Shown: positions 21,864 through 57,272 of the stretch, piece by piece
Numbering within the stretch: the first letter of the stretch is position 1
Layout: the number at the start of each line of letters is the position of its first letter
NCBI GenBank assembly: GCA_035447065.1
Contig: DAOTGJ010000006.1
Location: 5,668 to 69,667 of the forward strand
Direction of reading: 5' to 3'
Source of the DNA: Candidatus Krumholzibacteriia bacterium
GTDB taxonomy: Bacteria > Krumholzibacteriota > Krumholzibacteriia > LZORAL124-64-63
Length of the DNA stretch: 64,000 nucleotides
Made by a program: the position numbers and the translations under genes
Notes under the pieces: generated by a model
Databases searched by the model: none
The model's input: only the letters and a program-made list of their open reading frames with translations
Told to the model about the DNA's origin: nothing

Positions 21864-23906
<2,043 letters not shown>

Positions 23907-23916
23907 GGGAGGGACC

Positions 23917-37764: not shown

Positions 37765-37770
37765 CCGCGC

Positions 37771-37803
37771 GGGGGGCGGGCCGATTTCTCTGGCCCGCCC
37801 CCG
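37771..37803 (+). terminator. GC hairpin terminator after glnA
   Basis: A perfect 11-bp stem gggggcgggcc/ggcccgccccc with a 9-nt U-rich loop gauuucucu starts 7 nt after the stop. Confidence 0.5.
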
Positions 37804-37817
37804 TCCTCCACGCTAGG

Positions 37818-38282
37818 ATGCGGCCCATGAACGCCCGCATCCTCCTGCTGATCAGCCTGACGCTCCTGCCCGCCGCCGCCGGCGCCGCCGACCTCCGCGT
37901 GGAGGTGCGGTCCGCGGACGTGCGCCAGGAAACCCTGGCCGACGGGCGCGTTGTGCGCACCTGGAGCTGGGGCGTGCTGACCACCGCCGCGGAGCTGCCC
38001 GTGACCGACGCCGCCGACGCCCTGGCCCTGCCCCTGCAGGGCGACGTGACCGTGCACGGTCCCCGCGACGCCGAGGGCATGGCGCCGTTGCTCCTGCTGG
38101 CCGACGGCCTGGTCCTGGCCGTGGACGGCGACGTGTCCGTGGACACCCGCGACGACGCCACGGTGATCGGGCCGCCGGACGCCCCCGTGCATCCCGGCGC
38201 CGCCATCGCCCTCTTCCTGGCCATCCTCATCCTCACGGCGCTCATGCTGCGCCAGACCCGCCGCAGCCTCGCCGCCCGATGA
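37818..38282 (+). CDS. small exported protein with C-terminal TM helix + basic tail
   Basis: It has a signal peptide 'MNARILLLISLTLLPAAAGAA' and the C-terminus 'PGAAIALFLAILILTALMLRQTRRSLAAR'. Its stop overlaps the downstream ligase start as ATGA. Confidence 0.45.
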   Translation: MRPMNARILLLISLTLLPAAAGAADLRVEVRSADVRQETLADGRVVRTWSWGVLTTAAELPVTDAADALALPLQGDVTVHGPRDAEGMAPLLLLADGLVLAVDGDVSVDTRDDATVIGPPDAPVHPGAAIALFLAILILTALMLRQTRRSLAAR

Positions 38283-39634
38283 GCGCCGTCGCCGGCATCC
38301 GACGCCTGGGGGAGGCCGCCTTCCTCGTCGGCACCGCCGGCCTGGGCTGGATCGGCGTGGGGCTGATCCACCTGCTGACCGGCCGCGACGTGGGGGCCGG
38401 CCTGCAGCCGTCGTACGTGGCCTTCGCGGTGGCCGGGATCTGCGCCTTCGCGGCCGAGCCGGAGTTCCGCCGCCGCCTCACCGACGGCCGCTTCCTGGCG
38501 CCGCTCTGGTGGCTTGCCCTGGCGGCCCTCCTGCTGTCGGCGCTGGGTCTGCGCGCGGCGCCCTCCGGCGTTCCCATGGCGGAGGCCCTGGCCCGCTGGG
38601 GCCGGCAGGTGGTCCAATGGGCCGTGATGGCCGCCGTGGCCCTGATCACCGCCCACCGGCTGGACCAACCCGCCGCCCGTCGTCCCTTCGCCCTGGCCCT
38701 GGCCGCGGGGGTGCTGCTGCAGGGCGTCTACGCAGCGCTCCAGACGTGGCAGTTCGCCGATCCGCGGCCCTGGTTCCTGGCCCTGGAGCGCGTGGCCACC
38801 AGCAATCCGGCCATCCTCTCCGGTTCGGAGGAGCTGTATCTGGGCCATGCCTTCACGGGCATCCCGCGGGTGCGAGGCACGGCCTGCGAACCGCTCTATC
38901 TGGGGAACCTGCTCCTGATGTCGCTGCCGTTCCTGATGCTGCCCGGCACGGGACGGCGGCTGGCATGGGGGGCGGCGGCGACGGGCCTGGTCCTGCTGCT
39001 GGCCACCTGGTCCCGTGGCGCCTGGCTCGGGGGCGTGGCGGCCGCGGTCACGGCGGGGGGGCTGGCCTGGAGCGCCGGGCATCGGCCGGGACGGCGGCTG
39101 CTGGGCGCCGTGGGCGCCGCCCTGGTCCTGGCTGCGGCGGGCCTGGCCCTGCTGGCCGGTCCCCAGGCCCTGACCCTCCTGGTCGACCGCCTGCGCCAAT
39201 CCCTGGTCATGGAGGACTGGTCCAATCTCACCCGGCTCTACTCCATGCATGCCGCCTGGAAGGCCTTCCTGCTCAGCCCCTGGGTCGGGATCGGCTGGGG
39301 GCAGTTCGGCTATCATTTCCCGCTGCTGACGACGCCCGAGGGCCTGCAGAGCCAGTTCGATTGGCCGGTGGTCAACAACTACCCCCTGCAGGTCCTGGCC
39401 GAGACCGGGCTGGCGGGCTTCCTGGTCCTGGCGGCGGGGGCGGGGGCGGCGGCGCGGCGTCTGCTGCGGGCGTGCCGGACGGATGCGGATCCCTGGCGCG
39501 TGGCCGCCGCGGCCGCGGCCGTGGGCGTGGGCGTGCAGCTCCTGTCCTTTTCCCAGTACAACCTGCCCCATATCTGGGTCGCCGTGGGCGCCCTGCTGGC
39601 CGCCGCGGCGCCGCGCCATGGGGAGGCGACGTGA
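38279..39634 (+). CDS. O-antigen ligase family protein (Wzy_C domain; WaaL/PglL-like)
   Basis: The 451-aa polytopic membrane protein has 'ATWSRGAWLGG', the RGxW motif of the Wzy_C family. Confidence 0.75.
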   Translation: MSAVAGIRRLGEAAFLVGTAGLGWIGVGLIHLLTGRDVGAGLQPSYVAFAVAGICAFAAEPEFRRRLTDGRFLAPLWWLALAALLLSALGLRAAPSGVPMAEALARWGRQVVQWAVMAAVALITAHRLDQPAARRPFALALAAGVLLQGVYAALQTWQFADPRPWFLALERVATSNPAILSGSEELYLGHAFTGIPRVRGTACEPLYLGNLLLMSLPFLMLPGTGRRLAWGAAATGLVLLLATWSRGAWLGGVAAAVTAGGLAWSAGHRPGRRLLGAVGAALVLAAAGLALLAGPQALTLLVDRLRQSLVMEDWSNLTRLYSMHAAWKAFLLSPWVGIGWGQFGYHFPLLTTPEGLQSQFDWPVVNNYPLQVLAETGLAGFLVLAAGAGAAARRLLRACRTDADPWRVAAAAAAVGVGVQLLSFSQYNLPHIWVAVGALLAAAAPRHGEAT

Positions 39635-40743
39635 CGCGCCGGCACGTGGTGCTGGACGCCACGGCGGCGCGGCCGCCCTTGACCGGCGTGGGCTGGTCCA
39701 TGGTGGAGGTGGCGCGGGCCCTGGCGGAGACGGCCCCCGCAGACCTGCGCTTCACCCTGCTGTGCGAGGATCCCGAGCCGTTCGCGGCGGCGGCTGCGGC
39801 GGGCTGGCCGCTCCGCGTGCTGGAGCTGGGCCACGGCCGCGGAGCCCGCATCCTCCGGGCCCAGACCCGCGTGGGGGCGGCGGCGCAGGAGCTGCGGGCC
39901 GACCTGCTGCACTGCCTGACCATGCCCGGAGTCCTGCGTCCGCCATGCCCCCTGGCGGTCACCGTGCATGACCTGGCGTATCTCCATGTTCCGGGCACCA
40001 TCGAAGGACCGCGGCGCCTCTGGTACCGCATGGCGGTGCCGCGGGGGCTGGCGCGGGCCGACCGGATCCTGACCAATTCCCGGCACACCGCCCAGGAGGT
40101 GGCCGCGGCCTTCCCCGGCGCCCGCGACCGCATCCGGGTGACTCCCTTCGGCACGCCCAGCTGGACGGCGGGGGCGCCCCGAGCTCCCGAGGAACCGGCG
40201 GCCGATGCGCCGTTCCTCTTCGTGGGCGCCCTGGAACCGCGCAAGAACCTGGGCCGCATCCTGGACGCCCTGGAGCTCCTGCACGCCCGTCGCGCGGAGG
40301 CGCCGGCGCTCCACGTGGTGGGGGCGCCGGGCTGGCGCAACACGGACCTCCTGGCCCGCCTGGATCGGCTGCAGGAGGCGGGGCTGGTCCGCTGGGAGGG
40401 GCACCTGCGGCACGCGGATTTGCAGCAGAGGCTCGTTTCGGCCCGAGCCTTGCTATTGCCGTCCTTGCACGAGGGCTTCGGATTCCCGATCCTCGAGGGG
40501 ATGGCCCTCGGCATCCCGGTCATCACGTCGGATCGCGGCGCCATGCGGGAGGTGGGGGGCGAGGACGCCCTCCTGGTGGATCCCGAGGCGCCCGAGGCCA
40601 TCGCGGCGGCCATGGAGACCGTCCTGGACCACCGCGGGCTCATGACGGACCTCGTGCGCCGCGGTCGGGAACGGGCCGCGGCCCGGACATGGAGCGTCGC
40701 GGCCGAAGCCACCTTGGCGGCGTATCGCGAGGTCCTGGCCTGA
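39631..40743 (+). CDS. glycosyltransferase family 4
   Basis: It starts at GTG overlapping the upstream stop and has 'LLPSLHEGFGFPILEGMALGIPVITSDRGAMREV'. Confidence 0.85.
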   Translation: MTRRHVVLDATAARPPLTGVGWSMVEVARALAETAPADLRFTLLCEDPEPFAAAAAAGWPLRVLELGHGRGARILRAQTRVGAAAQELRADLLHCLTMPGVLRPPCPLAVTVHDLAYLHVPGTIEGPRRLWYRMAVPRGLARADRILTNSRHTAQEVAAAFPGARDRIRVTPFGTPSWTAGAPRAPEEPAADAPFLFVGALEPRKNLGRILDALELLHARRAEAPALHVVGAPGWRNTDLLARLDRLQEAGLVRWEGHLRHADLQQRLVSARALLLPSLHEGFGFPILEGMALGIPVITSDRGAMREVGGEDALLVDPEAPEAIAAAMETVLDHRGLMTDLVRRGRERAAARTWSVAAEATLAAYREVLA

Positions 40744-40849
40744 GGCTCCGGCCGGTCAGCTTTTTCATTGTCAGCGGAACCCGCTTGACCTACCGTATCC
40801 TGTTGGCGTTCGGGACGGAGCCGACGCCCGGGGACCGGGAGAAACCAAT

Positions 40850-42133
40850 TTGGGCATGGACACCACCATCGTGCTGGCCGCCATCACCGCCACGGTGATC
40901 TCCTGGCTGGTGCAACCGCACTTCCGGAGTCTGGGATTCCTCACGGGGATCGTGGATCATCCCGGCTATCGCCGCACCCATCGGGAACCCGTGCCGCGCA
41001 CGGGCGGCATGGCCATCTTCATCTCCTTCTTCGTCACCCTGTTCATCCTGGACAAGCTGGTCCTGATCGATCCCCTGCCCTGGACCTGGCTGGGCGCCCT
41101 GGGCGGCGCCGGCCTGGCCATCATGGCCCTGGGCGTGGGGGACGACCGCTTCCACATCCATGCGGAGAAGAAGCTCTACGGCCAGCTCCTGGTGATCCTG
41201 GGCCTGATGATCGTGGGGGAGCGGCTGGAGACGGTCACGCTGCCCTTCGCCGGCGCGGTGCACCTGGGCGGCTGGTCCTGGCCCATCACGCTGCTGTGGT
41301 ACCTGGGCTTCGTGAACAGCATGAACCTGATCGACGGCCTGGACGGCCTGGCCAGCGGGCTGGGCCTGGTGGTGGCCGCCACCATCGCCGTCATCGCGGG
41401 CGCCCTGGGCGACCGCTTCTCCCTGCTCGTGGCCGCCACCCTGAGCGGCGCCATCGTCTCCTTCCTGTACTGGAACGTGAGCCGGCGGAAGATCTTCCTG
41501 GGCGATTCCGGCAGCATGTGGCTGGGCCTGGCCCTGGGCGGCCTGCTCATGCATCTGGCCCAGCGGCCGGGCGTGCCCCTGCTGCTGCTGATGGCTCCCA
41601 TGCTGGTCCCCATCTGGGATACCGGCACCACCATCATCCGCCGCTACCGCAAGCGCACGTCGATCTTCGAGGCCGACGACTTCCACCTCCATCACCGCCT
41701 GGTGCGGCTGGGCTTCCGTCCGTCCACCACCGTGGCCCTGCTCATGCTGGTGACGGTGGGCGCGGTGCTCTTCGCCCTCTCGGACTTCCTGCACCTGGCC
41801 TGGTTGGGCCTGCCCGCCCTGGGCTGCTGGCTCTGGCCCCTGCGCATGTGGGCCAACCGGCGGCGTCAGGATCTGGGCGCCGGCCAGCTGGACTTCTTCA
41901 CCGAGCTGCTCTTCGTGGCCGGTCTGGACGATCCGGCCGAACGCGAGGGCGCCAGGGAGACGCGGCAGGTGGCCGAGATCATCGACATCCAGGCCGAGCG
42001 CGAGCGCGTGGCCGGGATCGTGGCCGCCGCCTCGGGCCAGGACGACACCGCCACGCCCGACGTGGTTCCCGAGCCCAAACGCGGCGGATCCTCCCATGTC
42101 GTTCTCACCTCTGCCAAAGACCCTGATCGCTGA
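40850..42133 (+). CDS. wecA: undecaprenyl-phosphate sugar-1-phosphate transferase (WecA/MraY family)
   Basis: It has 'NLIDGLDGLASG', 'FLGDSGSMWLG', and multiple TM helices. The C-terminal ~80 aa are an acidic soluble tail. Confidence 0.8.
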   Translation: MGMDTTIVLAAITATVISWLVQPHFRSLGFLTGIVDHPGYRRTHREPVPRTGGMAIFISFFVTLFILDKLVLIDPLPWTWLGALGGAGLAIMALGVGDDRFHIHAEKKLYGQLLVILGLMIVGERLETVTLPFAGAVHLGGWSWPITLLWYLGFVNSMNLIDGLDGLASGLGLVVAATIAVIAGALGDRFSLLVAATLSGAIVSFLYWNVSRRKIFLGDSGSMWLGLALGGLLMHLAQRPGVPLLLLMAPMLVPIWDTGTTIIRRYRKRTSIFEADDFHLHHRLVRLGFRPSTTVALLMLVTVGAVLFALSDFLHLAWLGLPALGCWLWPLRMWANRRRQDLGAGQLDFFTELLFVAGLDDPAEREGARETRQVAEIIDIQAERERVAGIVAAASGQDDTATPDVVPEPKRGGSSHVVLTSAKDPDR

Positions 42134-42746
42134 CCTGGCCCGCCCCGGGTCCGGCCCCGTGGTGGACCTGGGCTGCGGCGACGGCCGCTTCGGAGACCGG
42201 CTGCGGGAGCATCATCCGGCCGGGATCTACGGCCTGGACCGCTCCCGCGGACCGCATGTGCGGGCCGCGGCGATCGCGGACGTGGATCGGCCGCCGCTGC
42301 GGGACGGGGGCTGCGGGCTCCTCGTGGCCGCCAACCTCCTGCGCCACCTGCCGCACCCCGCGGCGGCCGTCGCGGCCTGGCGTCGGGCCTTGCGCCCGGA
42401 CGGCGTGCTGTGGATCCTGGAGGACGAGCCCGCCGCCGCCGCGGGACCCGGCGGCCTCTACCGTGACCTTCAGGGCTGGCTGGTGCGGCACGGTCCGCCC
42501 GGACGGGGCGCGCTGCTGCCGCAGCGGCGGGCCCGGGAGCTGCTGGACGACGGGCCGGGGTGGCGCTGGGGCGGCTTCGTGAACCAGGAGGCCCTGCGGG
42601 ATCCCGCGGCCCTGCTCGCGGGATTGCGGGCCGCGGCGGCCGGGGGAGACGCGGCGGCGGCCGTCCTGGCCGACCGCCTGGAGCGGGAATCCTTCGCGTA
42701 CGGCGAGGCCTGGTGGGCCCGCTGGCAACAGGAGGCGGTGGCGTGA
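42096..42746 (+). CDS. class I SAM-dependent methyltransferase
   Basis: It has the SAM motif I 'VVDLGCGDGRFG'. It overlaps the wecA-like gene by 38 nt, so the start is uncertain. Confidence 0.6.
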   Translation: MSFSPLPKTLIADLARPGSGPVVDLGCGDGRFGDRLREHHPAGIYGLDRSRGPHVRAAAIADVDRPPLRDGGCGLLVAANLLRHLPHPAAAVAAWRRALRPDGVLWILEDEPAAAAGPGGLYRDLQGWLVRHGPPGRGALLPQRRARELLDDGPGWRWGGFVNQEALRDPAALLAGLRAAAAGGDAAAAVLADRLERESFAYGEAWWARWQQEAVA

Positions 42747-44023
42747 GGACCAGGCTGGCATGGCTGCTGGCGGCGTCGGCGGTGCTCGGAAGCCTGGTCG
42801 CTGGCTTCGTGGACCATCGTCCCCGTGCGCTGGTGGATTGGCGGAGCCTGCGTGCGGTGGCGCTGGAGAGCGATGACTGGGGCCTGCCGGGCTACGTGCC
42901 CGATGCCCACGCCTTGGACGGCGTGGACCGGGCCGCCCTGGGCGGGACCCACTTCCCGGACGTGTACTGGAACTCCACCCTCGAATCCGCGGCCGATCTG
43001 GATGCCATGGTGGCGCTCATGCGCCGTCATCATGCCCGCGACGGCCTGCCGGCCGTGTTCCAGCCCAACATGATCCTGAAGCCGCAACTCCCTGGCCTGG
43101 ACTCACCTTACCATAGGCCGGGGCTCGCGGAGGCCGAGCGCCGGGCCGTGGCTTCCGGCACCTGGCAGCCGGAGATCCACGGGGCCGATCACATCGATCC
43201 GGCGCGGCGGGACGAGGCCCTGACGGATCCTGATCCGGTTCTGGCCCAGGCGGCCTCCCGCGGCGTCCTGGTGTTCCCGCGCAGCCACACGGCCTTCGAG
43301 CTGGGCCCCCAGCGGCCCCTGGCCGACGTCCGCCGCAGCTGGGAACCCCTGCCGCGCCGTTTCGAGGATCGTTTCGGCCAGCCGGCCACGGCGGTCATCG
43401 CGCCGGACTACGTCTGGGACGGCCGCCACGAGGGGCTCTTCCGGGATCTGGGCCTGCGCATCGTCCAGGCCAAGGACCACCAGCGCCAGCTGGGCCTGGT
43501 CGGGCCGCAGCACTGGCGGGACGTGCGGCGGCTCGCCCTGCGCCTCTGGGACCGCTGGCGGGTGCGGGATCTGGTCTACCTGGATCGGAACGCCTTCTTC
43601 GAGACCGCCCACGCGGAAGACCCGCGGGCCCTGGTGCGCTCCTGCGCGGATCAGGTGCGAGGGGCCTGGCGGCGCGGGGAGCCGGCCATCGTGGAGACCC
43701 ATCGCGTGGGTTTCGTGCAGGTGGAGCCCGGCGCGGGGGCGGAGGGGCGCGCCCTGCTGGACAGCCTGCTGACGGATCTGGACGCCTCCGCGCCCCTGTA
43801 CGTGTCGGACGCCGAGCTGGCCGGTCTGGCGCGGCGCGGGATCTCCGCGGTGCGGCGGGGCCCCGTCTGGGTCCTCCGCAACCCGGGCCCGGCCCATCGC
43901 CTGGCCATTCTGCCGACGGATGGGCCTCGGGCCTCGCCGGCCCGGATCGGCGTGCCCGCCCGCACCACCCTGGTCCTGGATCGGACCTCGCTGGCCGTAC
44001 TGCAGCGGCTGCCCCTCCGTTGA
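42743..44023 (+). CDS. hypothetical membrane-anchored protein (polysaccharide-locus associated)
   Basis: It starts at GTG overlapping the upstream stop and has an N-terminal TM anchor 'LAWLLAASAVLGSLVAGF'. The 426-aa product has no recognised motif. Confidence 0.5.
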   Translation: MRTRLAWLLAASAVLGSLVAGFVDHRPRALVDWRSLRAVALESDDWGLPGYVPDAHALDGVDRAALGGTHFPDVYWNSTLESAADLDAMVALMRRHHARDGLPAVFQPNMILKPQLPGLDSPYHRPGLAEAERRAVASGTWQPEIHGADHIDPARRDEALTDPDPVLAQAASRGVLVFPRSHTAFELGPQRPLADVRRSWEPLPRRFEDRFGQPATAVIAPDYVWDGRHEGLFRDLGLRIVQAKDHQRQLGLVGPQHWRDVRRLALRLWDRWRVRDLVYLDRNAFFETAHAEDPRALVRSCADQVRGAWRRGEPAIVETHRVGFVQVEPGAGAEGRALLDSLLTDLDASAPLYVSDAELAGLARRGISAVRRGPVWVLRNPGPAHRLAILPTDGPRASPARIGVPARTTLVLDRTSLAVLQRLPLR

Positions 44024-44048
44024 CACTCTCCTCTGATTTGTAGTACCA
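44019..44048 (+). promoter_or_regulatory. sigma70-like promoter candidate TTGACA-N18-TACCAT for peptidase gene 1
   Basis: A perfect -35 overlaps the upstream stop codon. The leader downstream is homologous to that of peptidase gene 2. Confidence 0.35.
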
Positions 44049-44191
44049 TCATATGCGTTGAGGATAAGGGGGAGGACTCCCGCCTCACGCACTCAATCTG
44101 CGCGCACCTCGTGGTGACCTCGCCACCGGCCTCGGCCGGACACCTCAGAACGCAGAGGATTTCATTGCAGCGCACCGTCTCGCCCCGGTCC

Positions 44192-47100
44192 ATGCGACTC
44201 GTCCCCGTCGCCAAGAGCGGAGTCATCAAGTCCGGCATCGGCGCCTGGCTGATCGTGCTCCTCTGCGCGAGCGTCCTGCCGGCCGCGGCCGCCGACCATA
44301 CCGTCACCCTGGACCAGGCCCCGATCTGGAGCCGGGAGCTCGCCGGCACCGTGGTGCGCTGGCCCGGCCTGCCGCTCCTCGACGATCCCGACGCGCCGGC
44401 CCTGCCGTACCACGACGTGACCATCCTGCTGCCGCCGGGAGAGAGCCTGAGCGAGGTCCGGGTCCAGCCGGCGGAGGTGGCCGTGCGCCCCCTCGACGCG
44501 CCCATGGCTCCGGGGCGGCCTCCGCTCAGCGATCAGGGGGACACGGCGGCGGGCCGTACCGTTCCGGACGGAGGCGCGCCGCAGGCCTGGGGCGAGGTCC
44601 TGGGCACCAGCACCTGGCACGGCTATCAGCTGGGCCACGTGCGCATCCATCCCGTCCGTCTGCGCGAGACGGCGGACGGCCCCGTGGCCGAACACGCGCG
44701 CACGTTCCGGCTGACCACCTCCACCCGCCCCTCCACGCGGGCCAGCGTGTTGCGCCAGCGCGCCGTGCCCGGCGAGGAGCTCCGCCTGCGTTCCGTCCTG
44801 GGCCGTCACGTGCTGGGAGCCGAGCTCGCCGCCGCCTACCCGCAGGCCGCCGCCTCCGCCGCCGCCAAGACCCTGGAGGGCTACCGGCCCACCGACGCCC
44901 CGAGCCTGGACGGCTCGGACGTGCGCTTCGTGATCGTGACCACCGAAGCCCTGCGCCCGGCCTTCGAGCCGCTGGCCGAGTACCGCTGCGCCCAGGGCGT
45001 GCCCACGGTGGTGCGCACCCTGGAGTGGATCCTGGCCAACACCCTGCCCGAGGCCGACCCCCAGGCCACCCTGCGCTCGTTCCTGGCCGACGCCTACACG
45101 CGCTGGGGCGTGCGCTACGCCCTTCTGGGCGGCGACGTGGGCGTGATCCCCACGCGGATGATCTTCAACACCTACTACCCGTCCCAGAAGGGGTCGGACA
45201 TCCCGGTGGACCTGTACTACGGGGGGCTGGACGGCGACTGGAACGCCGACCGCGACGAGAACCTGGGCGAGCCCTACCTCAACGGCTTCGATCAGGGCGA
45301 CGACGCCGATCTGGTGCCGGAGATCCACGTGGGCCGCGCGCCGGTCACGAGCCTGGCCCAGGCCCAGACCTTCGTGGGCAAGATCCTGGCCTACGAGCGC
45401 GACCACGCCGGCGCGTACCAGGGCCGCGCCCTCTTCCTCAGCGAGGTCCTGTTCCCCAGCGACTACTCGCCGGGCGACGAGATCTACGACGACGGCGCCG
45501 CCTACAGCGAGGCCATCATCGCCGACGCCCTCGCCGGCCGCGACTTCGCCTACGACCGCCACTACGAGACCAGCCCCCTCTGGCCCGGCTCCGTGCCCGA
45601 GACGCGCAGCGGCGTCATCGGCGCCCTGAACAGCGGCCAGTACGGCATCGTGAACCACATCGGTCACGGCTACTTCTACAACATGTCCGTGGGGGCCGAG
45701 ACCCTGAACACGAAGGACGCGGAGGCCCTCCACAACGGCGACCAGCTCTTCGTGCTGAACAACCTGAACTGCGCCTCGGCGGCCATCGACTACAACTCCA
45801 TCATGGAGCGCTTCGTGACCAACGCCGACGGCGGCGCCGTGGCCGCCGTGGGCTCGAGCCGCGCCGCGTTCCCCTCCACCGCCTCGGGCTACCAGGCCAA
45901 CTTCTTCGACGGGATCTTCGTGCAGGGGCTGCGCACCCTGGGCGAGGCCGTGAACGCCATGCGCACGCCGTACGACGGCCAGACCTTCCAGAACACCGTG
46001 CAACGGTGGACCCACATGACGCTGGTGCTGGTGGGCGATCCCACGCTGCGCCTCTACGGCGCCGCGCCGACGGACCTGGCCGTGGCCGCGCCGGCCGCCC
46101 TCTCGCCGGGCCGGCAGGACGTGACCGTGGACGTGACCCGCGGCGGCGCGCCAGTGGCCGGCGCCGCCGTCTGCTTCTGGAAGGACGGCGACGACTACCG
46201 CACCGCGCTGACCGACGCCGCCGGCCGCGTCGTGGCCCCGGTGCACCTGCGCGGCGCCGGCACGCTGCGCATCACGGCCACCGCCGCCGACAGCCCGCCC
46301 CTGGAGATCGTCGTGCCCGTGGACGCGGGCCTGACGGCGTATCCCGCGCTGGCGGGCCTGACGGTGGTGGACGACGGCAGCCTGGGCACCCTGGGCAACG
46401 GCGACGGCGTGCCGGGCGCGGGCGAGACCGTGGCCCTGCTCACCGACTGGACCAACGCCGGCGGCGCCGACGCGGCCGCCGCGGGCACGCTCGCCCTGAG
46501 CTGCGACGATCCCCTCGTGAACGTCCTGACCGCCGGCGTGGATCTGCCGGCGCTGGCCGCGGGCGCCACCGGCGCGGCCGCGGCGCCCGTCCTGCTCCAG
46601 CTCGCCGCCACCATCCCCGACCGTTCCGAGTTCAGGCTCGACTTCACGGCGGCGTGGCAGAGCGGTCCCGTGGCGCAGCCCAGCATGCTCGAGGTCGTGG
46701 CTCCGCGCATGGAGCCGGGCCAGATGGCTTTCAACGACTACCCGCACGGCGACGGCGACGGCCTCATGGAGCCGGGCGAGCTGGTGCGACTCAAGCTCAG
46801 CCTCCTGAACACCGGCTGGGGCCTGGCCACCGGGCTGGTGGGCTGGATCGATCCGTCGGACCCCAACATCACCGTGGTCCAGGGCATCGGCACGTGGCCC
46901 CAGGCCGGGCGCAACCAGGAGGTGGAGCAGGAGCAGGAGTTCCTCCTCTCCATGGCCGCGGTGAACGGCACCGTGGAAGCCGTGCTGCACCTGGCGGATT
47001 CGCTGGGCCAGACCTGGGAGCACCGCTTCTCGCTGAACCGGCCGGCCACCCCGGTGATCTCCGAGGTGGAGTCCAGCAGCGTGGGGGAGATCCTGCTGGT

Positions 47101-48982
47101 GTGGGATCCCAACGCCGAGGCCGACCTGCTGGGCTACCACGTGCAGCGCGCGGCGTCGTCCAGCGGCCCGTACGAGCGGCTGACCCTGCGCCCCATCACC
47201 GGCGGCGCCTTCTTCCGCGACATCGGGCTGGATCCCCTGACGCGCTACTTCTACAAGGTCGCGGCCGTGGACTCGTCGCGGTTCGTGTCGGCCTACTCGC
47301 TCCCCATCTCCGTGAGCACGCCGCCCGCGGAGCAGACCGGCTTCCCCATCACCATGCCGGTGGAGACCTCCAGCCACATCGCCGTGGGCGACGTGAACGG
47401 CGACGGCGCCCTGGAGGTGGTCACCGCGGCGGAGGCCATCTACGTGTGGACGGCCGACGGCAACGAGCTGCTGGACGGCGACAACGATCCCACCACCCTG
47501 GGCCCCTTCGTGGACAACGGGGAGACCTGGACGCCCGCGGGCATCGTGCTGGCGGACATCACCGACGATCCCGGCCTGGAGATCGTGGCCTCGTGCCGCT
47601 CCACCAACGCCATCTACGTGTTCGAGTCCGACGGCGCGGTGGCGCCGGGCTGGCCGCGCACCATGAACAACTGGAACTGGGCCACGCCCTGCGCCGGGGA
47701 CATCGACGGCGACGGCCTGGCGGAGGTGGTGGTGAACACCATCCGCAACCGCACCTACGCCTGGAACCACGACGGCACGGAGGTGCTCGACGGCGACGGC
47801 GACCCCGCCACCGACGGCGTGTTCCACGAGCGCGTGAACGAGTGGTACTCCTTCGCCACGCCGTCGCTGGCGGACCTGGACGGCGACGGCGCGGCGGAGG
47901 TCATCTTCGGCACGCGCAGCAGCGACACGGCCCCGGACGAGCTGCTGGCCCTGCGCGCCGACGGCACCCAGCCCGCCGGCTGGCCGGTGCTGCTGGGGAT
48001 CTACGGCGAGGCCATGGATTCGCCGGCGGTGGGCGACTGGGACCGCGACGGCGACGTGGAGATCGTGCTCATCACGGAGGACGACAAGCTCCACGTCCTG
48101 GACCGCACCGGCGCCCACGAGCCCGGGTTCCCCATCGCGTTCATCGCCGACAACAACGGCGTGGGCCAGAGCTGCCCCTCGCCGGCCCTGGGCGACATGG
48201 ACGGCGACGGTCTGCTGGAGATCGTGGCCGTGGCCGTGGACGACGCCACCCATGCCATGATCCACGTCATCGGCCGCGACGGCCTGGACCTGCCCGGCTG
48301 GCCCAAGGCCGTGGGCGGCAGCTCGGAGAGCTCGCCCATCCTGGGCGACGTGACCGGCGACGGCCTGCCCGACGTGATCTACGGCATCGGCGGCGCCAGC
48401 GACTCCCAGGAGAACCTCCTCTACGCCTTCCGCAACGACGGCGCCACGATCCCGGGCTTCCCGCTCTCGCTGTCGGGACCCGTGCGCGCCACGCCCACCC
48501 TGACGGACCTGAACGGCGACGGCGACGTGGACCTGGTCTACGCCGGCTGGGACCTCGCGGTGCACGTCTGGGATTTCCCGGCCCCGTGGAACGAGGCCGC
48601 CGCGGCCTGGCCCACCTTCCACGGCGACGTGCAGCGCCGCGGCGTGACGGCGGACCTGACGATCTCCGCGGTGGCGGAGCCGTCGCCGCTGCTGCCGCAG
48701 GCGCTCGTGCTCGAGCCCTGCGCGCCCAACCCCTTCAATCCGGCCACGACGATCCGCTTCGCGCTGCCGGCCGACGTGCGCGGCCGCACGCGCCTGCGCG
48801 TGTTCGATCTCCAGGGCCGCCTGGTGCGCACGCTGGTGGACGGAGTGCTGCCCGCGGGCTTCCACGAGGTGGCGTGGCGGGGCCGCGACGACCGGGACCG
48901 CGCCGTGGGCAGCGGCGTGTACCTCTATCGCCTCGAGGCCGGCGGCGTGGCCGCCCAGGGGCGCATGACCCTGGTCAAGTAG
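44192..48982 (+). CDS. secreted multidomain C25 (gingipain-like) cysteine peptidase with FN3/Ig domains, FG-GAP repeats and T9SS-type C-terminal sorting domain (paralog 1)
   Basis: The signal peptide is 'MRLVPVAKSGVIKSGIGAWLIVLLCASVLPAAAA'. It has 'VRFVIVTTEALRPAFEPLAEYR', the dyad 'HIGHGYF' plus 'NNLNCASAAID', repeated 'GDVNGDGALEVV', 'DIDGDGLAEVV' and 'DLNGDGDVDLVYAG', and a C-terminus 'NPFNPATTIRFALP...SGVYLYRLEAG...RMTLVK'. Confidence 0.85.
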   Translation: MRLVPVAKSGVIKSGIGAWLIVLLCASVLPAAAADHTVTLDQAPIWSRELAGTVVRWPGLPLLDDPDAPALPYHDVTILLPPGESLSEVRVQPAEVAVRPLDAPMAPGRPPLSDQGDTAAGRTVPDGGAPQAWGEVLGTSTWHGYQLGHVRIHPVRLRETADGPVAEHARTFRLTTSTRPSTRASVLRQRAVPGEELRLRSVLGRHVLGAELAAAYPQAAASAAAKTLEGYRPTDAPSLDGSDVRFVIVTTEALRPAFEPLAEYRCAQGVPTVVRTLEWILANTLPEADPQATLRSFLADAYTRWGVRYALLGGDVGVIPTRMIFNTYYPSQKGSDIPVDLYYGGLDGDWNADRDENLGEPYLNGFDQGDDADLVPEIHVGRAPVTSLAQAQTFVGKILAYERDHAGAYQGRALFLSEVLFPSDYSPGDEIYDDGAAYSEAIIADALAGRDFAYDRHYETSPLWPGSVPETRSGVIGALNSGQYGIVNHIGHGYFYNMSVGAETLNTKDAEALHNGDQLFVLNNLNCASAAIDYNSIMERFVTNADGGAVAAVGSSRAAFPSTASGYQANFFDGIFVQGLRTLGEAVNAMRTPYDGQTFQNTVQRWTHMTLVLVGDPTLRLYGAAPTDLAVAAPAALSPGRQDVTVDVTRGGAPVAGAAVCFWKDGDDYRTALTDAAGRVVAPVHLRGAGTLRITATAADSPPLEIVVPVDAGLTAYPALAGLTVVDDGSLGTLGNGDGVPGAGETVALLTDWTNAGGADAAAAGTLALSCDDPLVNVLTAGVDLPALAAGATGAAAAPVLLQLAATIPDRSEFRLDFTAAWQSGPVAQPSMLEVVAPRMEPGQMAFNDYPHGDGDGLMEPGELVRLKLSLLNTGWGLATGLVGWIDPSDPNITVVQGIGTWPQAGRNQEVEQEQEFLLSMAAVNGTVEAVLHLADSLGQTWEHRFSLNRPATPVISEVESSSVGEILLVWDPNAEADLLGYHVQRAASSSGPYERLTLRPITGGAFFRDIGLDPLTRYFYKVAAVDSSRFVSAYSLPISVSTPPAEQTGFPITMPVETSSHIAVGDVNGDGALEVVTAAEAIYVWTADGNELLDGDNDPTTLGPFVDNGETWTPAGIVLADITDDPGLEIVASCRSTNAIYVFESDGAVAPGWPRTMNNWNWATPCAGDIDGDGLAEVVVNTIRNRTYAWNHDGTEVLDGDGDPATDGVFHERVNEWYSFATPSLADLDGDGAAEVIFGTRSSDTAPDELLALRADGTQPAGWPVLLGIYGEAMDSPAVGDWDRDGDVEIVLITEDDKLHVLDRTGAHEPGFPIAFIADNNGVGQSCPSPALGDMDGDGLLEIVAVAVDDATHAMIHVIGRDGLDLPGWPKAVGGSSESSPILGDVTGDGLPDVIYGIGGASDSQENLLYAFRNDGATIPGFPLSLSGPVRATPTLTDLNGDGDVDLVYAGWDLAVHVWDFPAPWNEAAAAWPTFHGDVQRRGVTADLTISAVAEPSPLLPQALVLEPCAPNPFNPATTIRFALPADVRGRTRLRVFDLQGRLVRTLVDGVLPAGFHEVAWRGRDDRDRAVGSGVYLYRLEAGGVAAQGRMTLVK

Positions 48983-49271: not shown

Positions 49272-52200
49272 ATGGTCCGCGATCGTCTCCGTTCGAAGCC
49301 TCGGGCGCGGCTGGCCGCGCTCGCCTGCATTGCGATCACCCTCCTCCTCGCCGCCGGCGTCGCCGCCGCGGCCGAGCGCGTCCTGCACCACGGCGTACTG
49401 GACGCCGACAAGCTCGTCTGGGAGTCCACCGCGGCCGGCAGCGTGCCGCGCTTCGGCGATGCTCCCATCTACCTGCAGGACGGGGTGCCCCAGGTGCCCA
49501 GCCTGTCGGTGACCGTGCTTGTGCCCGCCGACGCCGCCCTGGGCGACGTGACGGTGGTGCCCCTGCGCACCCGCCTCGTGGACGCGCCGTCGGCCCTGGC
49601 CTACGGCCGGCCGCTGATCAGCAGCGAGGGGGTGGCCGCCACCCAGGATCTCGTGTCCGCGTCCCGCGACCGCTTCCCCGACGCCTGGGGCCTGGACGGC
49701 GGCGATTCCTACCGCCGCGGCTACCGCCTCCAGAGCGTCACCGTGTTCCCCGTGCGCGCCGTCCGCGGCGCCGACGGGGTCTGGTCCGGCGTCGAGGTGC
49801 TGGAGGAGTTCGAGATCCGCACCGCCGGCACCGAGCCCGCGCCGCGGCCGGAGGACCGGGCGGTGCGCCGCCTGCTGGTGCCCGGCGAGCGCGAGCGCCT
49901 GGAGAGGGAGCTGGCGTCCGCGGTAGTCAACCCCGGCGCCCTCGGCGGCTACGCCCGCGAGGACGGCGTCCCCGCCGCGGATCTGCCCGGCGACAAGACC
50001 ATGAACCTGGGCGATTCCCCCTACGCCTACCTGATCATCACCTCCGAGGCCCTGGCGCCGGCGTTCGAGCCCCTGGCCGCGCACCGCACCGCCGGCGGCC
50101 TGCGCGCCACCGTCAAGACGCTGGAGTGGATCGAGGCCAACTACCGCCACGGCGCGGATCTCCAGGAGACCGTCCGCGGCTTCATCCGCGAGGCCTACGA
50201 GCGCTGGGGCGTGGAGTACGTGCTGCTGGGCGGCGACACCGACGTCATCCCGGCCCGCTACGCCCTGAGCAACTTCTACCCGCCCACGCAGACCACGGAC
50301 ATCCCCGCGGACATCTACTACGCGTGCCTGGACGGCAACTGGAACGCGGACGGCGACCCGTACTTCGGCGAGGCCGGCAGCTCCACGATCCCCGCCGACG
50401 ACGCCGACATGGCCGCGGAGGTCTTCCTGGGCCGCGCGCCGGTCAGCACGCCGGCGGAGGCCCAGAACTTCGTGACCAAGGTGGTGGACTACGAGCTCGG
50501 CACGGGCGGCGTCCACTACCCCAACAAGCTGCTGCTCGCCGCGGAGGTGCTCTTCCGCTCCGAGGCCGGCGACATCACGCTGGACGGGGCGTCCTTCGCC
50601 GAGGAGATCTACCTGGAGCTCGTGCAGCCCAACACCACCATGGACGTGGTGCGCATGTACGAGTCGTACAACGAGACCGACGAGTTCGGCGCGCCCCTGT
50701 ACCCCGGCTCCGTGCGCGAGACGCGGGCCGCGGTCATCGACACGCTGGACACCGGCACCTTCGGGATCTTCGTGCAGATCGGCCACGGCTTCTTCTTCAA
50801 CATGTCCATGGCCGATGCCGACATGACCGTGGGCGACGCCGACGGCCTGGTCAACGCGGACCGTCCGTTCCTGCTCTACGGGCTGAACTGCGCCAGCTGC
50901 GCCTTCGACTACAGCTGCCTCATGGAGCGGTTCGTGCAGAACCCCACCGGCGGCGCCATCGCGTCCATCGGCGCCTCCCGCGCGGCGTTCCCGTACACGT
51001 CCAACGACTTCCAGTACGAGTTCTTCCGCCTCTACTACGAGGAGGACGTGACGCGCCTGGGCGATCTCATCGACCGCAGCAAGCTGCCCTGGCTGTCGCT
51101 GGCGTACTCCAACAGCTTCACGCGCTGGACCTTCCTCAACTACACCCTGCTGGGCGACCCCGGCATGGCCCTGTGGCGCAACCGGCCCGCGGCCGTGACC
51201 CTGGGCACCCCGGGCAGCGTGGGCGGCGGCGACCAGACCGTGAACGTGACCGTCAGCAGCGCCGGCTCGCCGGTGCAGGACGCCATCGTGACCGTGCAGG
51301 GCGGGGGCACCTACGCCACCGCGGCCACCAACGCCTCCGGCCTCGCGGCCGTGCCGGTCACCGTGAACGCCGCGGGCCCGCTGAGCGTGGACGTGCACGG
51401 GCAGGACCTGGTCTGGACCAGCCGCGACGTTCCGGTGGTCTTCGGCGGCGCCTTCGTGGGGCTCGAGGACATGACGGTGCTGGACGACGGCACCCTGGGC
51501 ACCGTCGGCAACGGCAACGGCCGCGCCGAGGCGGGGGAGACCGTGGGCTTCTGGCCCACCTTCGCCGGCGTGGGCAGCAGCGGCAGCGGCGCCGCCACCG
51601 CCACGCTCGTCACCGCCGAGACCGGCGTGACCGTGGTGGACGGCAGCGTGGGCGTGCCGGCCCTGGCCGTGGGCGCCCAGGCCCAGAGCGACGCGCCCTT
51701 CCTGGTGGCCCTGGCCGCCGACGTGGCCGACGGCCGCCGCCTGGACTTCGACCTGGCGGTGAACGACGGCGCCAAGGCCCTCTACGCCAACGCCTGGTCC
51801 ACGCTGGCCACGGCGCCCGAGGTCGAGGCCGTGGCCCTGGACTGGTACGACACCTTCTTCGGCGACGGCGACGGCGTCGTGGACGACGGCGAGCGCATCT
51901 CCGTGCGCATGACCCTGAAGAACTACGGCGGCGGCGCGGCCGACGTGGTCACGGGACGCCTGCGCACCAACTCGGCCAACGTGAACGTCATCGACTCGGT
52001 GGCCACCTACGGCCCCCTGGACCTGCTGGACTCCTCGCAGGGGAGCGGCCTGTTCAGCTTCTCGCTGACCAGCGCCGTGGCGGCCTACGACGTGCGCGTG
52101 GAGTTCACCGACAACCGCGGCCGCACGTTCAGCCATCCGTTCGCCCTGAGCGATCCCACCACCCCCCTCAACCTGGTGGCCACCGGCTCGCTGGGCCCGG

Positions 52201-55924: not shown

Positions 55925-55952
55925 CGCCCTCGTGTCCTCAGGAGGATTCTCC

Positions 55953-56801
55953 ATGGCATCCCGACTGACCCGACTGGCCGATGAACTCTCGCTGGACGAC
56001 CTCAAGCGCCTGCTGCAGGTGAAGGAGAAGATGACCGTGCTGGAGGCGCGGCGCGCCAAGCTGGCCTCCGAGCTCCAGGACGTCGACTCCGAGCTGGCCC
56101 AGCTCCGCCAGGGCATGACGGGCGGGCGCGGTCGTCCCGCCAAGACCAGGACGCGCGTGAAGACGGCCCGCGCCCCGCGCGCCCGCAAGGGCGACACGGT
56201 GGCCGGCGTGGTGGAGGAGCTCATCCGCGCCACCGGCCGGGCCATGACCTTCAAGGAGATCCACGACGCCGTGACGGAGGGCAAGCTCGTCACCACGCGC
56301 TCCAAGGATTTCGCCAACGTGCTGCGGCGCACCCTGTCCACCAGCGACGCCTTCGTGCGCGTGGGCCGCGGCGTGTACGGCGTATCCGGCGTGACCAAGG
56401 CGCCGGCCGCGGCGCCGGCCGCCAAGGCGACCGCCGGGAAGAAGACGGCGAAGAAGGCGGCCAAGAAGAAGACCGCGAAGAAGAAGGCCGCCGGCAAGAA
56501 GGTCGCCAAGAAGGCCGTCGCCAAGAAGGCGGGGCGGAAGGCCGCGGCGAAGAAGGTCGTCAAGAAGACCGCCGCCAAGCGCGGCGGTCGCCGGGCCGCG
56601 GGCGGCACCCTGGAGGACGTGGTGGTCGCGCTGCTGCGCAAGGCAGGCAAGCCGCTGGGCTTCCAGGACCTGCTGAAGACCATCGTGGACGGCAAGCTGT
56701 TCAAGAGCAAGGCCAAGGACTTCAGCAACGTGCTGCGCCGCACGCTGTCCACGAGCAAGAAGGTCCAGCGGCAGGGCCGCGGCGTCTACGGGCTGGCCTA
56801 G
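55953..56801 (+). CDS. DNA-binding protein with two HARE-HTH-like winged-helix domains separated by a histone H1-like Lys/Ala-rich linker
   Basis: An AGGAGG RBS precedes the start. An N-terminal coiled coil is followed by two repeats 'F(K/Q)(E/D)I...GKL...SKDF(A/S)NVLRRTLSTS...V.R.GRGVYG(V/L)' flanking 'AKKAAKKKTAKKKAAGKKVAKKAVAKKAGRKAAAKKVVKK'. Confidence 0.6.
   Translation: MASRLTRLADELSLDDLKRLLQVKEKMTVLEARRAKLASELQDVDSELAQLRQGMTGGRGRPAKTRTRVKTARAPRARKGDTVAGVVEELIRATGRAMTFKEIHDAVTEGKLVTTRSKDFANVLRRTLSTSDAFVRVGRGVYGVSGVTKAPAAAPAAKATAGKKTAKKAAKKKTAKKKAAGKKVAKKAVAKKAGRKAAAKKVVKKTAAKRGGRRAAGGTLEDVVVALLRKAGKPLGFQDLLKTIVDGKLFKSKAKDFSNVLRRTLSTSKKVQRQGRGVYGLA
56400..56598 (+). repeat. low-complexity Lys/Ala codon repeat (AAGAAGGCC-type) encoding the H1-like linker
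   Basis: I observed a run of GCC/AAG/AAGAAG repeats in the sequence. It is a protein-level KA repeat. Confidence 0.5.
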
Positions 56802-57176: not shown

Positions 57177-57272
57177 GGAGCATCGTTCCTCGGTCATGGG
57201 TTCCGGCGCACGCGCGCCGCTGAGGTGCGGCCACGCTACCACGCGCGGCGGGCGCGGACAACCGGAGGCGTC

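What the first reader, a model, noticed from the sequence alone, without database searches (positions are those of the whole stretch)
37818..44023. Glycan-anchor biosynthesis block (WaaL/Wzy_C ligase, GT4, WecA, methyltransferase, unknown) directly upstream of the T9SS-type cargo peptidases
Six co-directional, mostly start/stop-overlapping genes end exactly where the promoter of the first CTD peptidase begins. They are a small exported protein, an O-antigen-ligase family protein ('WSRGAWLGG'), a GT4, a WecA-type initiating transferase, a SAM methyltransferase and a 426-aa membrane-anchored unknown. In Porphyromonas, gingipains with a CTD are attached to a dedicated anionic LPS whose synthesis needs a WaaL ligase, Wzy and an initiating transferase. 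The same functional combination is physically linked here, which suggests a dedicated cell-surface glycan anchor or glycosylation route for these cargo proteins.
Basis: inference. Interest (0 to 1): 0.7.

Follow-up and report, generated by a model that had tools for sequence, protein, structure and literature searches.

The report
Conserved glycan-ligase operon beside gingipain-like proteases
In an uncultured bacterial phylum (Krumholzibacteriota), a six-gene operon that builds a short sugar chain and ligates it to an unidentified acceptor always sits directly in front of giant gingipain-like surface proteases; this may mean the sugar-lipid anchors the proteases, but that link is not proven.

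Summary

The window is from Candidatus Krumholzibacteria. In 55 of 55 species-level genomes with enough sequence, the ligase block is followed directly by the C25 gene, and 52 keep the full gene order. C25 homologues elsewhere lack this neighbour.

- The CTD scores below the curated T9SS thresholds.
- No T9SS machinery was seen.
- C25 has its own promoter.
- Unrelated downstream genes are also collinear across the phylum.
- I could not tell whether the ligase is dedicated or the housekeeping WaaL.

The CE4 enzyme parallels P. gingivalis VimE, which exposes the amine used for cargo attachment. All parts belong to known families, and the arrangement is a new variant. Interest is moderate.

The parts
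37770..37805 (+). GC-rich hairpin after glnA (GGGGGCGGGCC-loop-GGCCCGCCCCC); likely the end of the upstream transcription unit
   Evidence: Read directly from the sequence. No T-run follows, and the terminator scan did not call it.
37827..38282 (+). g1: small bitopic protein (151 aa) with a signal peptide, a periplasmic domain of about 100 aa, a C-terminal TM helix and a basic tail. Its function is unknown; it may be a partner of the ligase.
   Evidence: GC3 frame analysis. The exact sequence is annotated as a hypothetical protein. A gene with the same architecture occupies the same slot in 50 related loci, with conserved motifs. There is no Pfam or NCBIfam family.
38279..39634 (+). g2: Wzy_C-family ligase with a WaaL-like fold (451 aa, about 12 TM helices)
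   Evidence: Wzy_C scores 43.9 bits against a 31.7 cut-off, and it is the only Pfam hit even at E<=10. The AF2 model has pLDDT 87.5. The Foldseek top hit is WaaL 7TPG, E 7.6e-7, TM 0.53-0.57. 60 columns are invariant across 35 homologues, including R246 and H346.
39631..40743 (+). g3: GT4-family (GT-B) glycosyltransferase, 370 aa
   Evidence: Glycos_transf_1 88.7 bits and Glyco_transf_4 54 bits. It is annotated as glycosyltransferase family 1.
40856..42133 (+). g4: polyprenyl-phosphate N-acetylhexosamine-1-phosphate transferase of the MraY/WecA family, 425 aa, with a cytoplasmic tail of about 90 aa
   Evidence: PF00953 scores 115 bits. The WecA model TIGR02380 scores 115 bits, below its equivalog cut-off of 326. 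It is the most conserved gene of the block, at 57-76% identity.
42096..42746 (+). g5: class I SAM-dependent methyltransferase, 216 aa, with no TM helix or signal peptide
   Evidence: Methyltransf_11/23/12/25 hits. A methyltransferase is also paired with distant g6 homologues in L004 and L005.
42743..44023 (+). g6: membrane-anchored enzyme with the CE4/NodB deacetylase fold, 426 aa (N-terminal TM helix, deacetylase barrel, small C-terminal beta domain)
44020..44049 (+). sigma70-like promoter (TTGACA-18-TACCAT) for the first C25 gene; it overlaps the g6 stop codon
   Evidence: It is the only site found in 37600-44400, against 0.1 expected from shuffles.
44192..48982 (+). C25a: gingipain-family cysteine peptidase, 1596 aa. 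Domain order: signal peptide, N-terminal region, C25 domain, Ig/FN3-like region, FG-GAP repeats, C-terminal FlgD_ig domain resembling a T9SS tail.
   Evidence: Peptidase_C25 206 bits, FG-GAP_3 and FlgD_ig. The start is confirmed by an exact match to the annotated protein. The His/Cys dyad is invariant in 51 orthologues. It is 40% identical to C25b.
49272..54113 (+). C25b: paralog of C25a, 1613 aa, with the same architecture. This is the type found alone in most related genomes.
   Evidence: Peptidase_C25 195 bits. FlgD_ig scores 38.9 bits in the whole protein and 43 bits in the last 100 aa. TIGR04183 scores 20.5, below the cut-off of 23. The b-type comes first in 41 of 55 loci.
54231..55871 (+). 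SBP_bac_5 (oligopeptide-type) substrate-binding protein that always follows the C25 gene(s)
   Evidence: Pfam 258.8 bits. It follows C25 in L001-L003 and in every locus long enough to show it.

Best explanation
g1-g6 is one operon, conserved across Candidatus Krumholzibacteriota, that makes a short, invariant, lipid-linked glycan and transfers it in the periplasm.

Inferred pathway:
1. The MraY/WecA-family enzyme g4 puts a HexNAc-1-phosphate on undecaprenyl phosphate.
2. The GT4 enzyme g3 adds a second sugar.
3. The cytoplasmic methyltransferase g5 methylates the glycan.
4. A flippase encoded elsewhere moves the unit across the membrane.
5. The membrane-anchored CE4-fold enzyme g6 removes an N-acetyl group and leaves a free amine.
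6. The WaaL-fold ligase g2 transfers the glycan to its acceptor, most likely lipid A-core. The bitopic periplasmic protein g1 may assist.

The next gene or genes have their own promoter. They encode catalytically intact gingipain-family peptidases of about 1,600 aa that end in a domain resembling a T9SS type-A tail.

The adjacency is invariant and specific to this ortholog. For that reason I think the glycolipid is most likely the surface anchor of these peptidases, as LPS is for T9SS cargo in Porphyromonas and Cytophaga. The g6-generated amine would be the candidate attachment point.

Shown: the gene families, the folds, the operon structure and the synteny. Inferred: the order of steps, the acceptor, and the link to the peptidases.
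For: - Operon structure: overlapping stops and starts, and a single promoter-like site only at the 3' end.
- Families and folds.
- The g2 family has invariant periplasmic residues and is 42-59% identical across the phylum, so it is not hypervariable as O-antigen loci are.
- Synteny: 55 of 55 loci have C25 next, and 52 of 55 keep the full order, across 42-74% GC.
- The breakpoints seen (variable glnA distance) lie upstream of g1; within the block only gene losses occur (g6 in L033/L045, GT4 in L077).
- C25 paralogs and homologues in other contexts lack the glycan block.
- The C25 His/Cys dyad is invariant. The CTD is conserved at 44-65% identity, more than the rest of the protein.
- An LPS heptose core is likely, which gives an acceptor: a heptosyltransferase II-like gene scores 113.7 bits and a GmhB-like gene 157 bits, and both lie at 62239-63860.
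- Literature parallels:
  - The CE4 enzyme VimE exposes the amine of the linking sugar (PMC7468200).
  - waaL is required to anchor type-A CTD cargo in C. hutchinsonii (PMC12860637).
  - The P. intermedia linking glycan includes a methylated sugar (PMC11969387).
Against: - C25 is separated from g6 by 168 nt here and about 400 nt in L001 and L002, and it has its own promoter.
- Collinearity extends to unrelated downstream genes (SBP_bac_5, HARE-HTH, HIT, PfkB), so the adjacency may be inherited order.
- The CTD is below the curated T9SS cut-offs.
- No T9SS component was seen in the window or reported for this phylum.
- The block has no flippase, Wzz, VimA-like or Wbp-like genes.
- Two genomes lack g6 and one lacks the GT4 gene, yet all three keep C25.
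- The acceptor of g2 cannot be read from sequence.
- The side of the membrane on which g6 acts is ambiguous.
Confidence: 0.45

Rival explanations
1. This is the housekeeping LPS outer-core or O-unit operon. g2 is the cell's ordinary WaaL and g3-g6 make a conserved core extension. The C25 genes are simply neighbours in a phylum-wide collinear region, with no specific functional tie.
For: - g2 has a WaaL-like fold and size and carries no PglL-specific domains.
- LPS heptose-core genes lie in the same window.
- Long-range collinearity includes unrelated genes.
- C25 has a separate promoter.
- The SBP_bac_5 gene after C25 suggests a self-sufficient protease and peptide-uptake pair.
Against: - No breakpoint between g6 and C25 in 55 genomes; the variation seen is in the distance to glnA upstream of g1.
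- This rival overlaps with the best explanation, because in Porphyromonas and Cytophaga the housekeeping WaaL product is itself the cargo anchor.
Confidence: 0.3
2. This is a protein O-glycosylation system. g2 would be an O-oligosaccharyltransferase (PglL/WsaB-like, also Wzy_C) that transfers the short methylated glycan onto the adjacent large surface proteins, as S-layer glycosylation clusters do next to their S-layer genes.
For: - Wzy_C is shared by WaaL and O-OTases (established knowledge of the family), and the acceptor cannot be read from sequence.
- The glycan operon is invariably next to a very large surface protein.
- A methyltransferase in the block is typical of capped S-layer glycans (my own knowledge of Geobacillus slg clusters, not tested here).
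Against: - No PglL_A or Wzy_C_2 hit even at E<=10.
- At 451 aa the protein is the size of WaaL.
- The best structural match is WaaL, although no O-OTase appeared among the Foldseek matches for comparison.
Confidence: 0.12
3. g2 is a Wzy-type polymerase, and the operon makes an ECA-like or capsular polymer that is unrelated to the peptidases.
For: - Some Wzy polymerases hit Wzy_C (family knowledge).
- A WecA-type initiator plus a deacetylase is typical of HexNAc polymers.
- A Wzz/GNVR-like gene and a BY-kinase-like gene lie at 3771-6144.
Against: - A single GT and no flippase, Wzz or export gene in the operon.
- The PCP and kinase genes are 32 kb away.
- The fold match is to WaaL.
Confidence: 0.08
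4. The C25 proteins are not cargo. They would be PorU-like sortases (transpeptidases) that attach other proteins to the glycolipid made by g1-g6.
For: - The best NCBIfam and PDB hits for the C25 domain include PorU: NF033707 at 83-95 bits and 6za2 at E 2e-4.
- PorU also keeps a CTD.
- The catalytic dyad is invariant.
Against: - The scores are far below the PorU cut-off of 420, and only the C25 domain matches.
- More distant homologues carry the gingipain propeptide domain PF08126 and align over 87-90% of the N-terminal 660 aa. This suggests a gingipain-like zymogen layout.
- No porV neighbour is present.
- An FG-GAP region is not a PorU feature.
Confidence: 0.05

Closest known systems
P. gingivalis A-LPS / T9SS cargo anchoring (WaaL, Wzy, WbaP, GtfC/F, VimA/E/F, PorU)
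   Same: - Gingipain-family C25 peptidases with a C-terminal beta-sandwich tail.
- A WaaL-type ligase.
- An initiating transferase.
- A GT4-type glycosyltransferase (g3); VimF is the GT of the vim operon.
- A CE4 deacetylase, as VimE is, that can expose a sugar amine for amide linkage (PMC7468200, PMC13086638).
   Different: - In P. gingivalis the genes are scattered; here they are one operon next to the cargo gene.
- The initiator here belongs to the PNPT (WecA/MraY) class, not the PHPT class of WbaP.
- The CTD is below T9SS HMM cut-offs.
- In P. gingivalis WaaL and Wzy are shared with O-LPS rather than dedicated.
- The phylum is different.
Cytophaga hutchinsonii LPS-dependent anchoring of type-A CTD cargo (waaL)
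   Same: A WaaL-family ligase is needed to anchor CTD proteins to the outer membrane (PMC12860637).
   Different: The published summary I read describes no physical linkage of waaL to cargo genes. The C. hutchinsonii finding is experimental, whereas the link here is only inferred.
WaaL O-antigen ligase (Cupriavidus metallidurans, PDB 7TPG)
   Same: The fold matches (Foldseek E 7.6e-7, TM about 0.55). Both have the Wzy_C domain, a similar size and about 12 TM helices.
   Different: - Only 18% identity, with no sequence-level PDB hit.
- g2 has an extra, highly conserved periplasmic element (TSNPAILSGSEELYLG...GIPRxRGTACEPLYLGN).
- The acceptor is unknown.
CE4 / NodB polysaccharide deacetylases (e.g. 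HpPgdA 3QBU, ArnD 8T0J, VimE)
   Different: - No hit to Pfam Polysacc_deac_1.
- An N-terminal TM anchor and an extra C-terminal beta domain.
- It forms its own family, almost confined to Krumholzibacteria.
S-layer glycosylation (slg) clusters of Geobacillus and Paenibacillus (WsaB O-OTase, from my own knowledge)
   Same: A Wzy_C enzyme, an initiating transferase, GTs and a methyltransferase are encoded next to the gene of the large surface protein they modify.
   Different: Those systems are Gram-positive, use an ABC-transporter pathway and a longer OTase. Protein glycosylation was not tested here.

Membership tests
WaaL-type O-antigen ligase (Wzy_C superfamily) | Wzy_C (PF04932) domain above the gathering score | tested here: met
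   43.9 bits against a cut-off of 31.7.
WaaL-type O-antigen ligase (Wzy_C superfamily) | Multi-pass membrane fold superimposable on solved WaaL | tested here: met
   The AF2 model has pLDDT 87.5. The Foldseek top hit is 7TPG, E 7.6e-7, TM 0.53/0.57, and FtsW is next.
WaaL-type O-antigen ligase (Wzy_C superfamily) | Conserved periplasmic Arg and His that bind Und-PP and catalyse transfer | tested here: inconclusive
   R246 (SRGAW) and H346 (GQFGxHF) are invariant in 35 homologues. I did not check their structural equivalence to the WaaL residues residue by residue.
WaaL-type O-antigen ligase (Wzy_C superfamily) | Transfers an Und-PP-linked glycan to lipid A-core | not testable with these tools
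   This needs biochemistry or genetics.
PglL-type O-oligosaccharyltransferase | PglL_A (PF15864) and/or Wzy_C_2 (PF11846) domains in addition to Wzy_C | tested here: not met
   Only Wzy_C is reported at E<=10.
Porphyromonas-type T9SS cargo anchoring to LPS | Cargo carries a type-A CTD (TIGR04183 / PF18962) above the curated cut-off | tested here: inconclusive
   TIGR04183 scores 20.5 (cut-off 23) in C25b and gives no hit in C25a. PF18962 scores 16-18 (cut-off 27). FlgD_ig scores 35-43 bits, which is significant. The PNPFNP, SGxYLYRL and K/R-M-x-L-[VI]-[KR] motifs are present.
Porphyromonas-type T9SS cargo anchoring to LPS | T9SS translocon and attachment complex (Sov/SprA, PorV, PorU, PorZ) in the genome | not testable with these tools
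   None is present in the 64-kb window. Whole genomes could not be scanned. No literature covers this phylum.
Porphyromonas-type T9SS cargo anchoring to LPS | Linking-sugar pathway (Wbp enzymes, VimA, VimE, VimF) and the PHPT initiator WbaP | tested here: not met
   Only a CE4-fold enzyme (g6) and a GT4 (g3) are present. No VimA-like or Wbp genes are in the block, and the initiator belongs to the PNPT class.
CE4 / NodB deacetylase (g6) | NodB-homology barrel fold | tested here: met
CE4 / NodB deacetylase (g6) | Catalytic Asp, Asp-His-His metal triad and catalytic His | tested here: inconclusive
   D44, D45 and H320 are invariant, and H146 and H150 are at least 90% conserved, at positions matching motifs 1, 2 and 5. 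The mapping was done by motif order, not by superposition.
CE4 / NodB deacetylase (g6) | Match to Pfam Polysacc_deac_1 (PF01522) | tested here: not met
   No Pfam or NCBIfam hit. g6 is a fold-level relative only.
WecA (UDP-GlcNAc:Und-P GlcNAc-1-P transferase) | PF00953 domain; TIGR02380 equivalog score | tested here: inconclusive
   PF00953 scores 115 bits, which meets its cut-off. TIGR02380 scores 115 bits against a cut-off of 326, which does not. g4 is a PNPT family member, and its sugar specificity is unknown.
Gingipain family (Peptidase_C25) | C25 domain above threshold with the catalytic His/Cys dyad | tested here: met
   206 and 195 bits. The GHG and NC[AS]S motifs are invariant in 51 orthologues.
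PorU sortase | NF033707 equivalog-domain score of at least 420 | tested here: not met
   82.7 and 94.7 bits, covering the C25 domain only.

The most novel reading that the evidence does not exclude
The block and its neighbour form a self-contained surface-display module outside Bacteroidota. g1-g6 would make a dedicated glycolipid whose g6-exposed sugar amine is the nucleophile. The adjacent C25 proteins would use their own PorU-like cysteine transpeptidase domain to cleave their CTD and join themselves directly to that amine, without the aminoacyl linker (VimA) or a separate sortase used in Porphyromonas.
Probability: 0.1. Interest if true: 0.8.

Novelty: new variant of a known kind. Interest (0 to 1): 0.5.

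Why it matters
How T9SS-type cargo is fixed to the cell surface is known only for a few Bacteroidota, where the genes are scattered and were found one by one. Here the candidate anchor pathway and the cargo are physically linked in every sampled genome of a whole uncultured phylum.

If the link is functional, three things follow:
- It gives a compact seven-to-eight-gene module that could be tested heterologously.
- It extends LPS-anchoring of gingipain-like proteases beyond Bacteroidota.
- It suggests a simpler chemistry, in which a de-N-acetylated sugar amine replaces an aminoacyl linker.

The work also assigns a fold to one unannotated family (g6, CE4-like) and defines a second conserved family that no Pfam or NCBIfam model covers (g1). 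If the link is only inherited gene order, this is an ordinary, well-conserved LPS-glycan operon.

Tried and rejected
- Sequence searches of g2 (single sequence and profile) and of g6 (single sequence) against PDB found nothing meaningful. Fold searches were needed instead.
- Foldseek against afdb50 was not available.
- Literature searches for T9SS or secretion systems in Krumholzibacteria returned nothing. One paper that mentions the phylum had no T9SS content.
- I searched about 1.4 Mb of related loci plus the window for other ORFs carrying the same CTD. Only the C25 genes carry it, so I could not show that it is a modular sorting tag in these neighbourhoods. L081 does show FlgD_ig / Por_Secre_tail on several neighbouring ORFs.
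- I considered the C25 proteins as PorU orthologues and rejected this on score and architecture.
- I considered PfkB at 56871-58229 as a heptose kinase and rejected it, because the best hits are ribokinase-like.
- Rfam and tRNA scans of the window were empty.
- No terminator was called between g6 and C25.

Full report
**Origin and gene calls**

The window is about 72% G+C, so mechanical ORF lists are full of spurious frames. Third-position GC analysis resolves one coding frame at every position of 37.8-44.0 kb, all on the + strand.

Start-codon inspection and exact-sequence look-ups give these genes:
- g1 37827-38282 (151 aa)
- g2 38279-39634 (451 aa)
- g3 39631-40743 (370 aa)
- g4 40856-42133 (425 aa)
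- g5 42096-42746 (216 aa)
- g6 42743-44023 (426 aa)

The same proteins are deposited from Candidatus Krumholzibacteria MAGs under generic names.

Three junctions overlap by 4 nt and one by 38 nt. The only gap, 112 nt, lies between g3 and g4. A GC-rich hairpin follows glnA just upstream of g1. The only sigma70-like promoter match in 37600-44400 is TTGACA-18-TACCAT at 44020-44049, on the g6 stop codon.

**What the six genes are**

- g2 has a Wzy_C domain above threshold and nothing else even at E<=10, so no PglL_A or Wzy_C_2. It has no sequence-level relative in the PDB. A confident AlphaFold model (pLDDT 87.5) is closest to the solved WaaL ligase 7TPG (E 7.6e-7, TM about 0.55), with FtsW second.
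- g3 is a GT4-family GT-B glycosyltransferase.
- g4 is a polyprenyl-phosphate HexNAc-1-P transferase of the MraY/WecA family. It does not reach the WecA equivalog cut-off.
- g5 is a soluble class I SAM methyltransferase.
- g1 has a signal peptide, a small periplasmic domain, a C-terminal TM helix and a basic tail. A gene of the same design, with conserved motifs, fills the same slot in 50 related loci.

**The neighbours**

Downstream lie two paralogous proteins that are 40% identical, of 1596 and 1613 aa. Each has a full Peptidase_C25 domain (206 and 195 bits), FG-GAP repeats and a C-terminal FlgD_ig domain.

The last 85 residues carry PNPFNP, SGxYLYRL and a basic C-terminal motif. However, they score below the curated T9SS type-A thresholds: TIGR04183 gives 20.5 against 23 in one protein and no hit in the other, and PF18962 gives 16-18 against 27.

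The catalytic His and Cys are invariant in 51 full-length orthologues. Matches to PorU are limited to the C25 domain and lie far below its cut-off. More distant homologues carry the gingipain propeptide domain and align over most of the N-terminal 660 residues. I therefore read these proteins as gingipain-like enzymes rather than sortases.

An SBP_bac_5 peptide-binding protein follows. About 18 kb downstream of the ligase are a heptosyltransferase II-like gene and a GmhB-like gene, so the organism probably makes a heptose-containing LPS core. No T9SS component is in the window.

**Synteny**

A scan of one genome per species, using the ligase alignment, returned 74 loci. Their record titles name Krumholzibacteria, unclassified bacteria, or other FCB taxa that look like mislabels.

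tblastn with the window's proteins gave the following:
- A C25 gene follows the block in 55 of 55 loci that have at least 7.5 kb downstream of the ligase.
- 52 of the 55 keep the full order ligase-GT4-WecA-MTase-g6-C25.
- Two loci lack g6 and one lacks the GT4 gene.
- The loci span 42-74% G+C, and the proteins are about 35-60% identical to those of the window.
- The distance to glnA upstream varies (about 2 kb, about 5 kb, or absent). So the region upstream of g1 varies, while within the block only gene losses are seen.
- Most genomes have one C25 gene of the 'b' type. A clade that includes this window has an extra 'a' copy in front.

Independent contig look-ups with called genes show the same picture.

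The linkage is specific to this ortholog. C25 homologues in Latescibacterota, Eisenbacteria, a Krumholzibacteriia paralog and two other contigs have no glycan genes nearby. Conversely, distant g6 homologues sit in ordinary polysaccharide loci with methyltransferases, a GT2, a PMT_2-type transferase and a MurJ-like flippase, without C25.

**Caveats on coupling**

- C25 has its own promoter and an intergenic gap of 168-420 nt.
- The downstream genes SBP_bac_5, HARE-HTH, HIT and PfkB are also collinear in distant relatives. Part of the conservation could therefore be inherited order.
- The block has no flippase, chain-length regulator, VimA-like or Wbp-like genes.
- I could not scan whole genomes, so I cannot say whether g2 is the only WaaL-like gene or whether a T9SS exists in this phylum.
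- The literature available here is silent on both points. It only says that T9SS may occur in several non-Bacteroidota FCB phyla (PMC11285876).

**Mechanism I consider most likely**

The operon assembles a short, conserved Und-PP-linked glycan in these steps: g4 initiates, g3 extends, g5 methylates, g6 de-N-acetylates, and g2, perhaps with g1, ligates.

The acceptor is probably lipid A-core. This rests on the WaaL-like fold and size, the absence of PglL-specific domains, and the likely presence of an LPS core.

The low variability of the whole block across a phylum is unlike O-antigen loci. It fits a fixed structural glycan.

Given the invariant, ortholog-specific adjacency, I favour the view that this glycolipid anchors the C25 proteins. 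Three published parallels support it:
- VimE, a CE4 deacetylase, exposes the amine of the P. gingivalis linking sugar (PMC7468200).
- waaL is required to anchor type-A CTD cargo in C. hutchinsonii (PMC12860637).
- The P. intermedia linking glycan includes a methylated sugar (PMC11969387).

My confidence in this overall account is 0.45. The anchor link to the peptidases is its least secure step.

Note that in P. gingivalis, WaaL and Wzy are shared with ordinary O-LPS, and the A-specific initiator is a PHPT enzyme (PMC13086638). A housekeeping ligase could still be the anchor route here.

**Rivals**

- Housekeeping LPS glycan with no specific tie to C25 (0.30)
- Protein O-glycosylation of the neighbouring surface proteins, in the manner of S-layer glycosylation clusters (0.12)
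- A Wzy-type polymerase for an ECA-like polymer (0.08)
- C25 acting as a sortase (0.05)

**Verdict**

All components belong to known families. The new elements are the phylum-wide physical coupling, the CE4-fold assignment of g6, and the g1 family. I rate it a new variant of a known kind, with interest 0.5.

Noticed in passing
window 37827-38282; L001 351-929; L002 4825-5412, and 50 loci in all: The g1 family ends in a conserved motif ((D)PRAG / xRANF), a TM helix and an Arg-rich tail (LLRRARxxR). This three-part C-terminus resembles sorting signals such as PEP-CTERM or LPXTG. It may equally be a plain membrane anchor.
   Followed up: partly
window 44192-48982 and 49272-54113; loci: The C25 gene is duplicated in one clade (an a-type copy in front of the b-type). 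41 of 55 species have a b-type gene first, and where the sequence extends far enough, SBP_bac_5 follows that single C25 gene. The two copies in the window are only 40% identical, so the duplication is old.
   Followed up: partly
L033 about 13915-15062; L045 about 13845-14849; L077 10001-11696: Two related genomes have lost g6 (the CE4-like gene), and one has no GT4 gene between the ligase and WecA. All three keep C25. In L045 the g1 slot also looks degenerate.
   Followed up: no
L006-L079 record titles: Many contigs with this Krumholzibacteria-specific block are titled 'uncultured Fibrobacteraceae', 'Gemmatimonas sp.', 'Gemmatimonadales' or 'Fibrobacter sp.'. These are probably taxonomic mislabels in the source records.
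   Followed up: no
L010, L014, L018: Low-GC lineages (GC3 of the g1-like gene is 0.26-0.40) keep the same gene order as the 72% GC window.
   Followed up: no
window 61184-63860: Two GT9 genes lie here, one of them heptosyltransferase II-like (113.7 bits, cut-off 134.6). A GmhB-like phosphatase follows (157 bits, cut-off 178). These are LPS inner-core heptose genes about 18 kb downstream of the ligase.
   Followed up: partly
window 3771-6144: A chain-length-determinant-like protein (XrtA-system type TIGR03007, 122 bits, below cut-off; weak Wzz/GNVR hits) is followed by a P-loop protein resembling a BY-kinase. Together they hint at an exopolysaccharide export system.
   Followed up: no
window 13173-27005: Thirteen co-directional genes have the sizes and order expected of a nuoA-N complex I operon. 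Only the first gene (Oxidored_q4) and the nuoL-like gene were checked.
   Followed up: partly
window 55932-56801: A HARE-HTH protein with a long Lys/Ala-rich, histone H1-like middle segment and a second copy of the HTH-like region. Its C-terminal part is conserved downstream of the block in L001-L003.
   Followed up: no
window 34769-36112 (- strand): A PIN-PhoH2 fusion (RNA 5'-3' helicase PhoH2 model, 309 bits, below the cut-off of 680), located upstream of glnA and on the opposite strand.
   Followed up: no
L081 2854-13035: On this contig a C25 / FG-GAP / FlgD_ig gene, split by frameshifts, is followed by several small ORFs that carry FlgD_ig or Por_Secre_tail tails. The tail is therefore modular in at least some relatives.
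   Followed up: no
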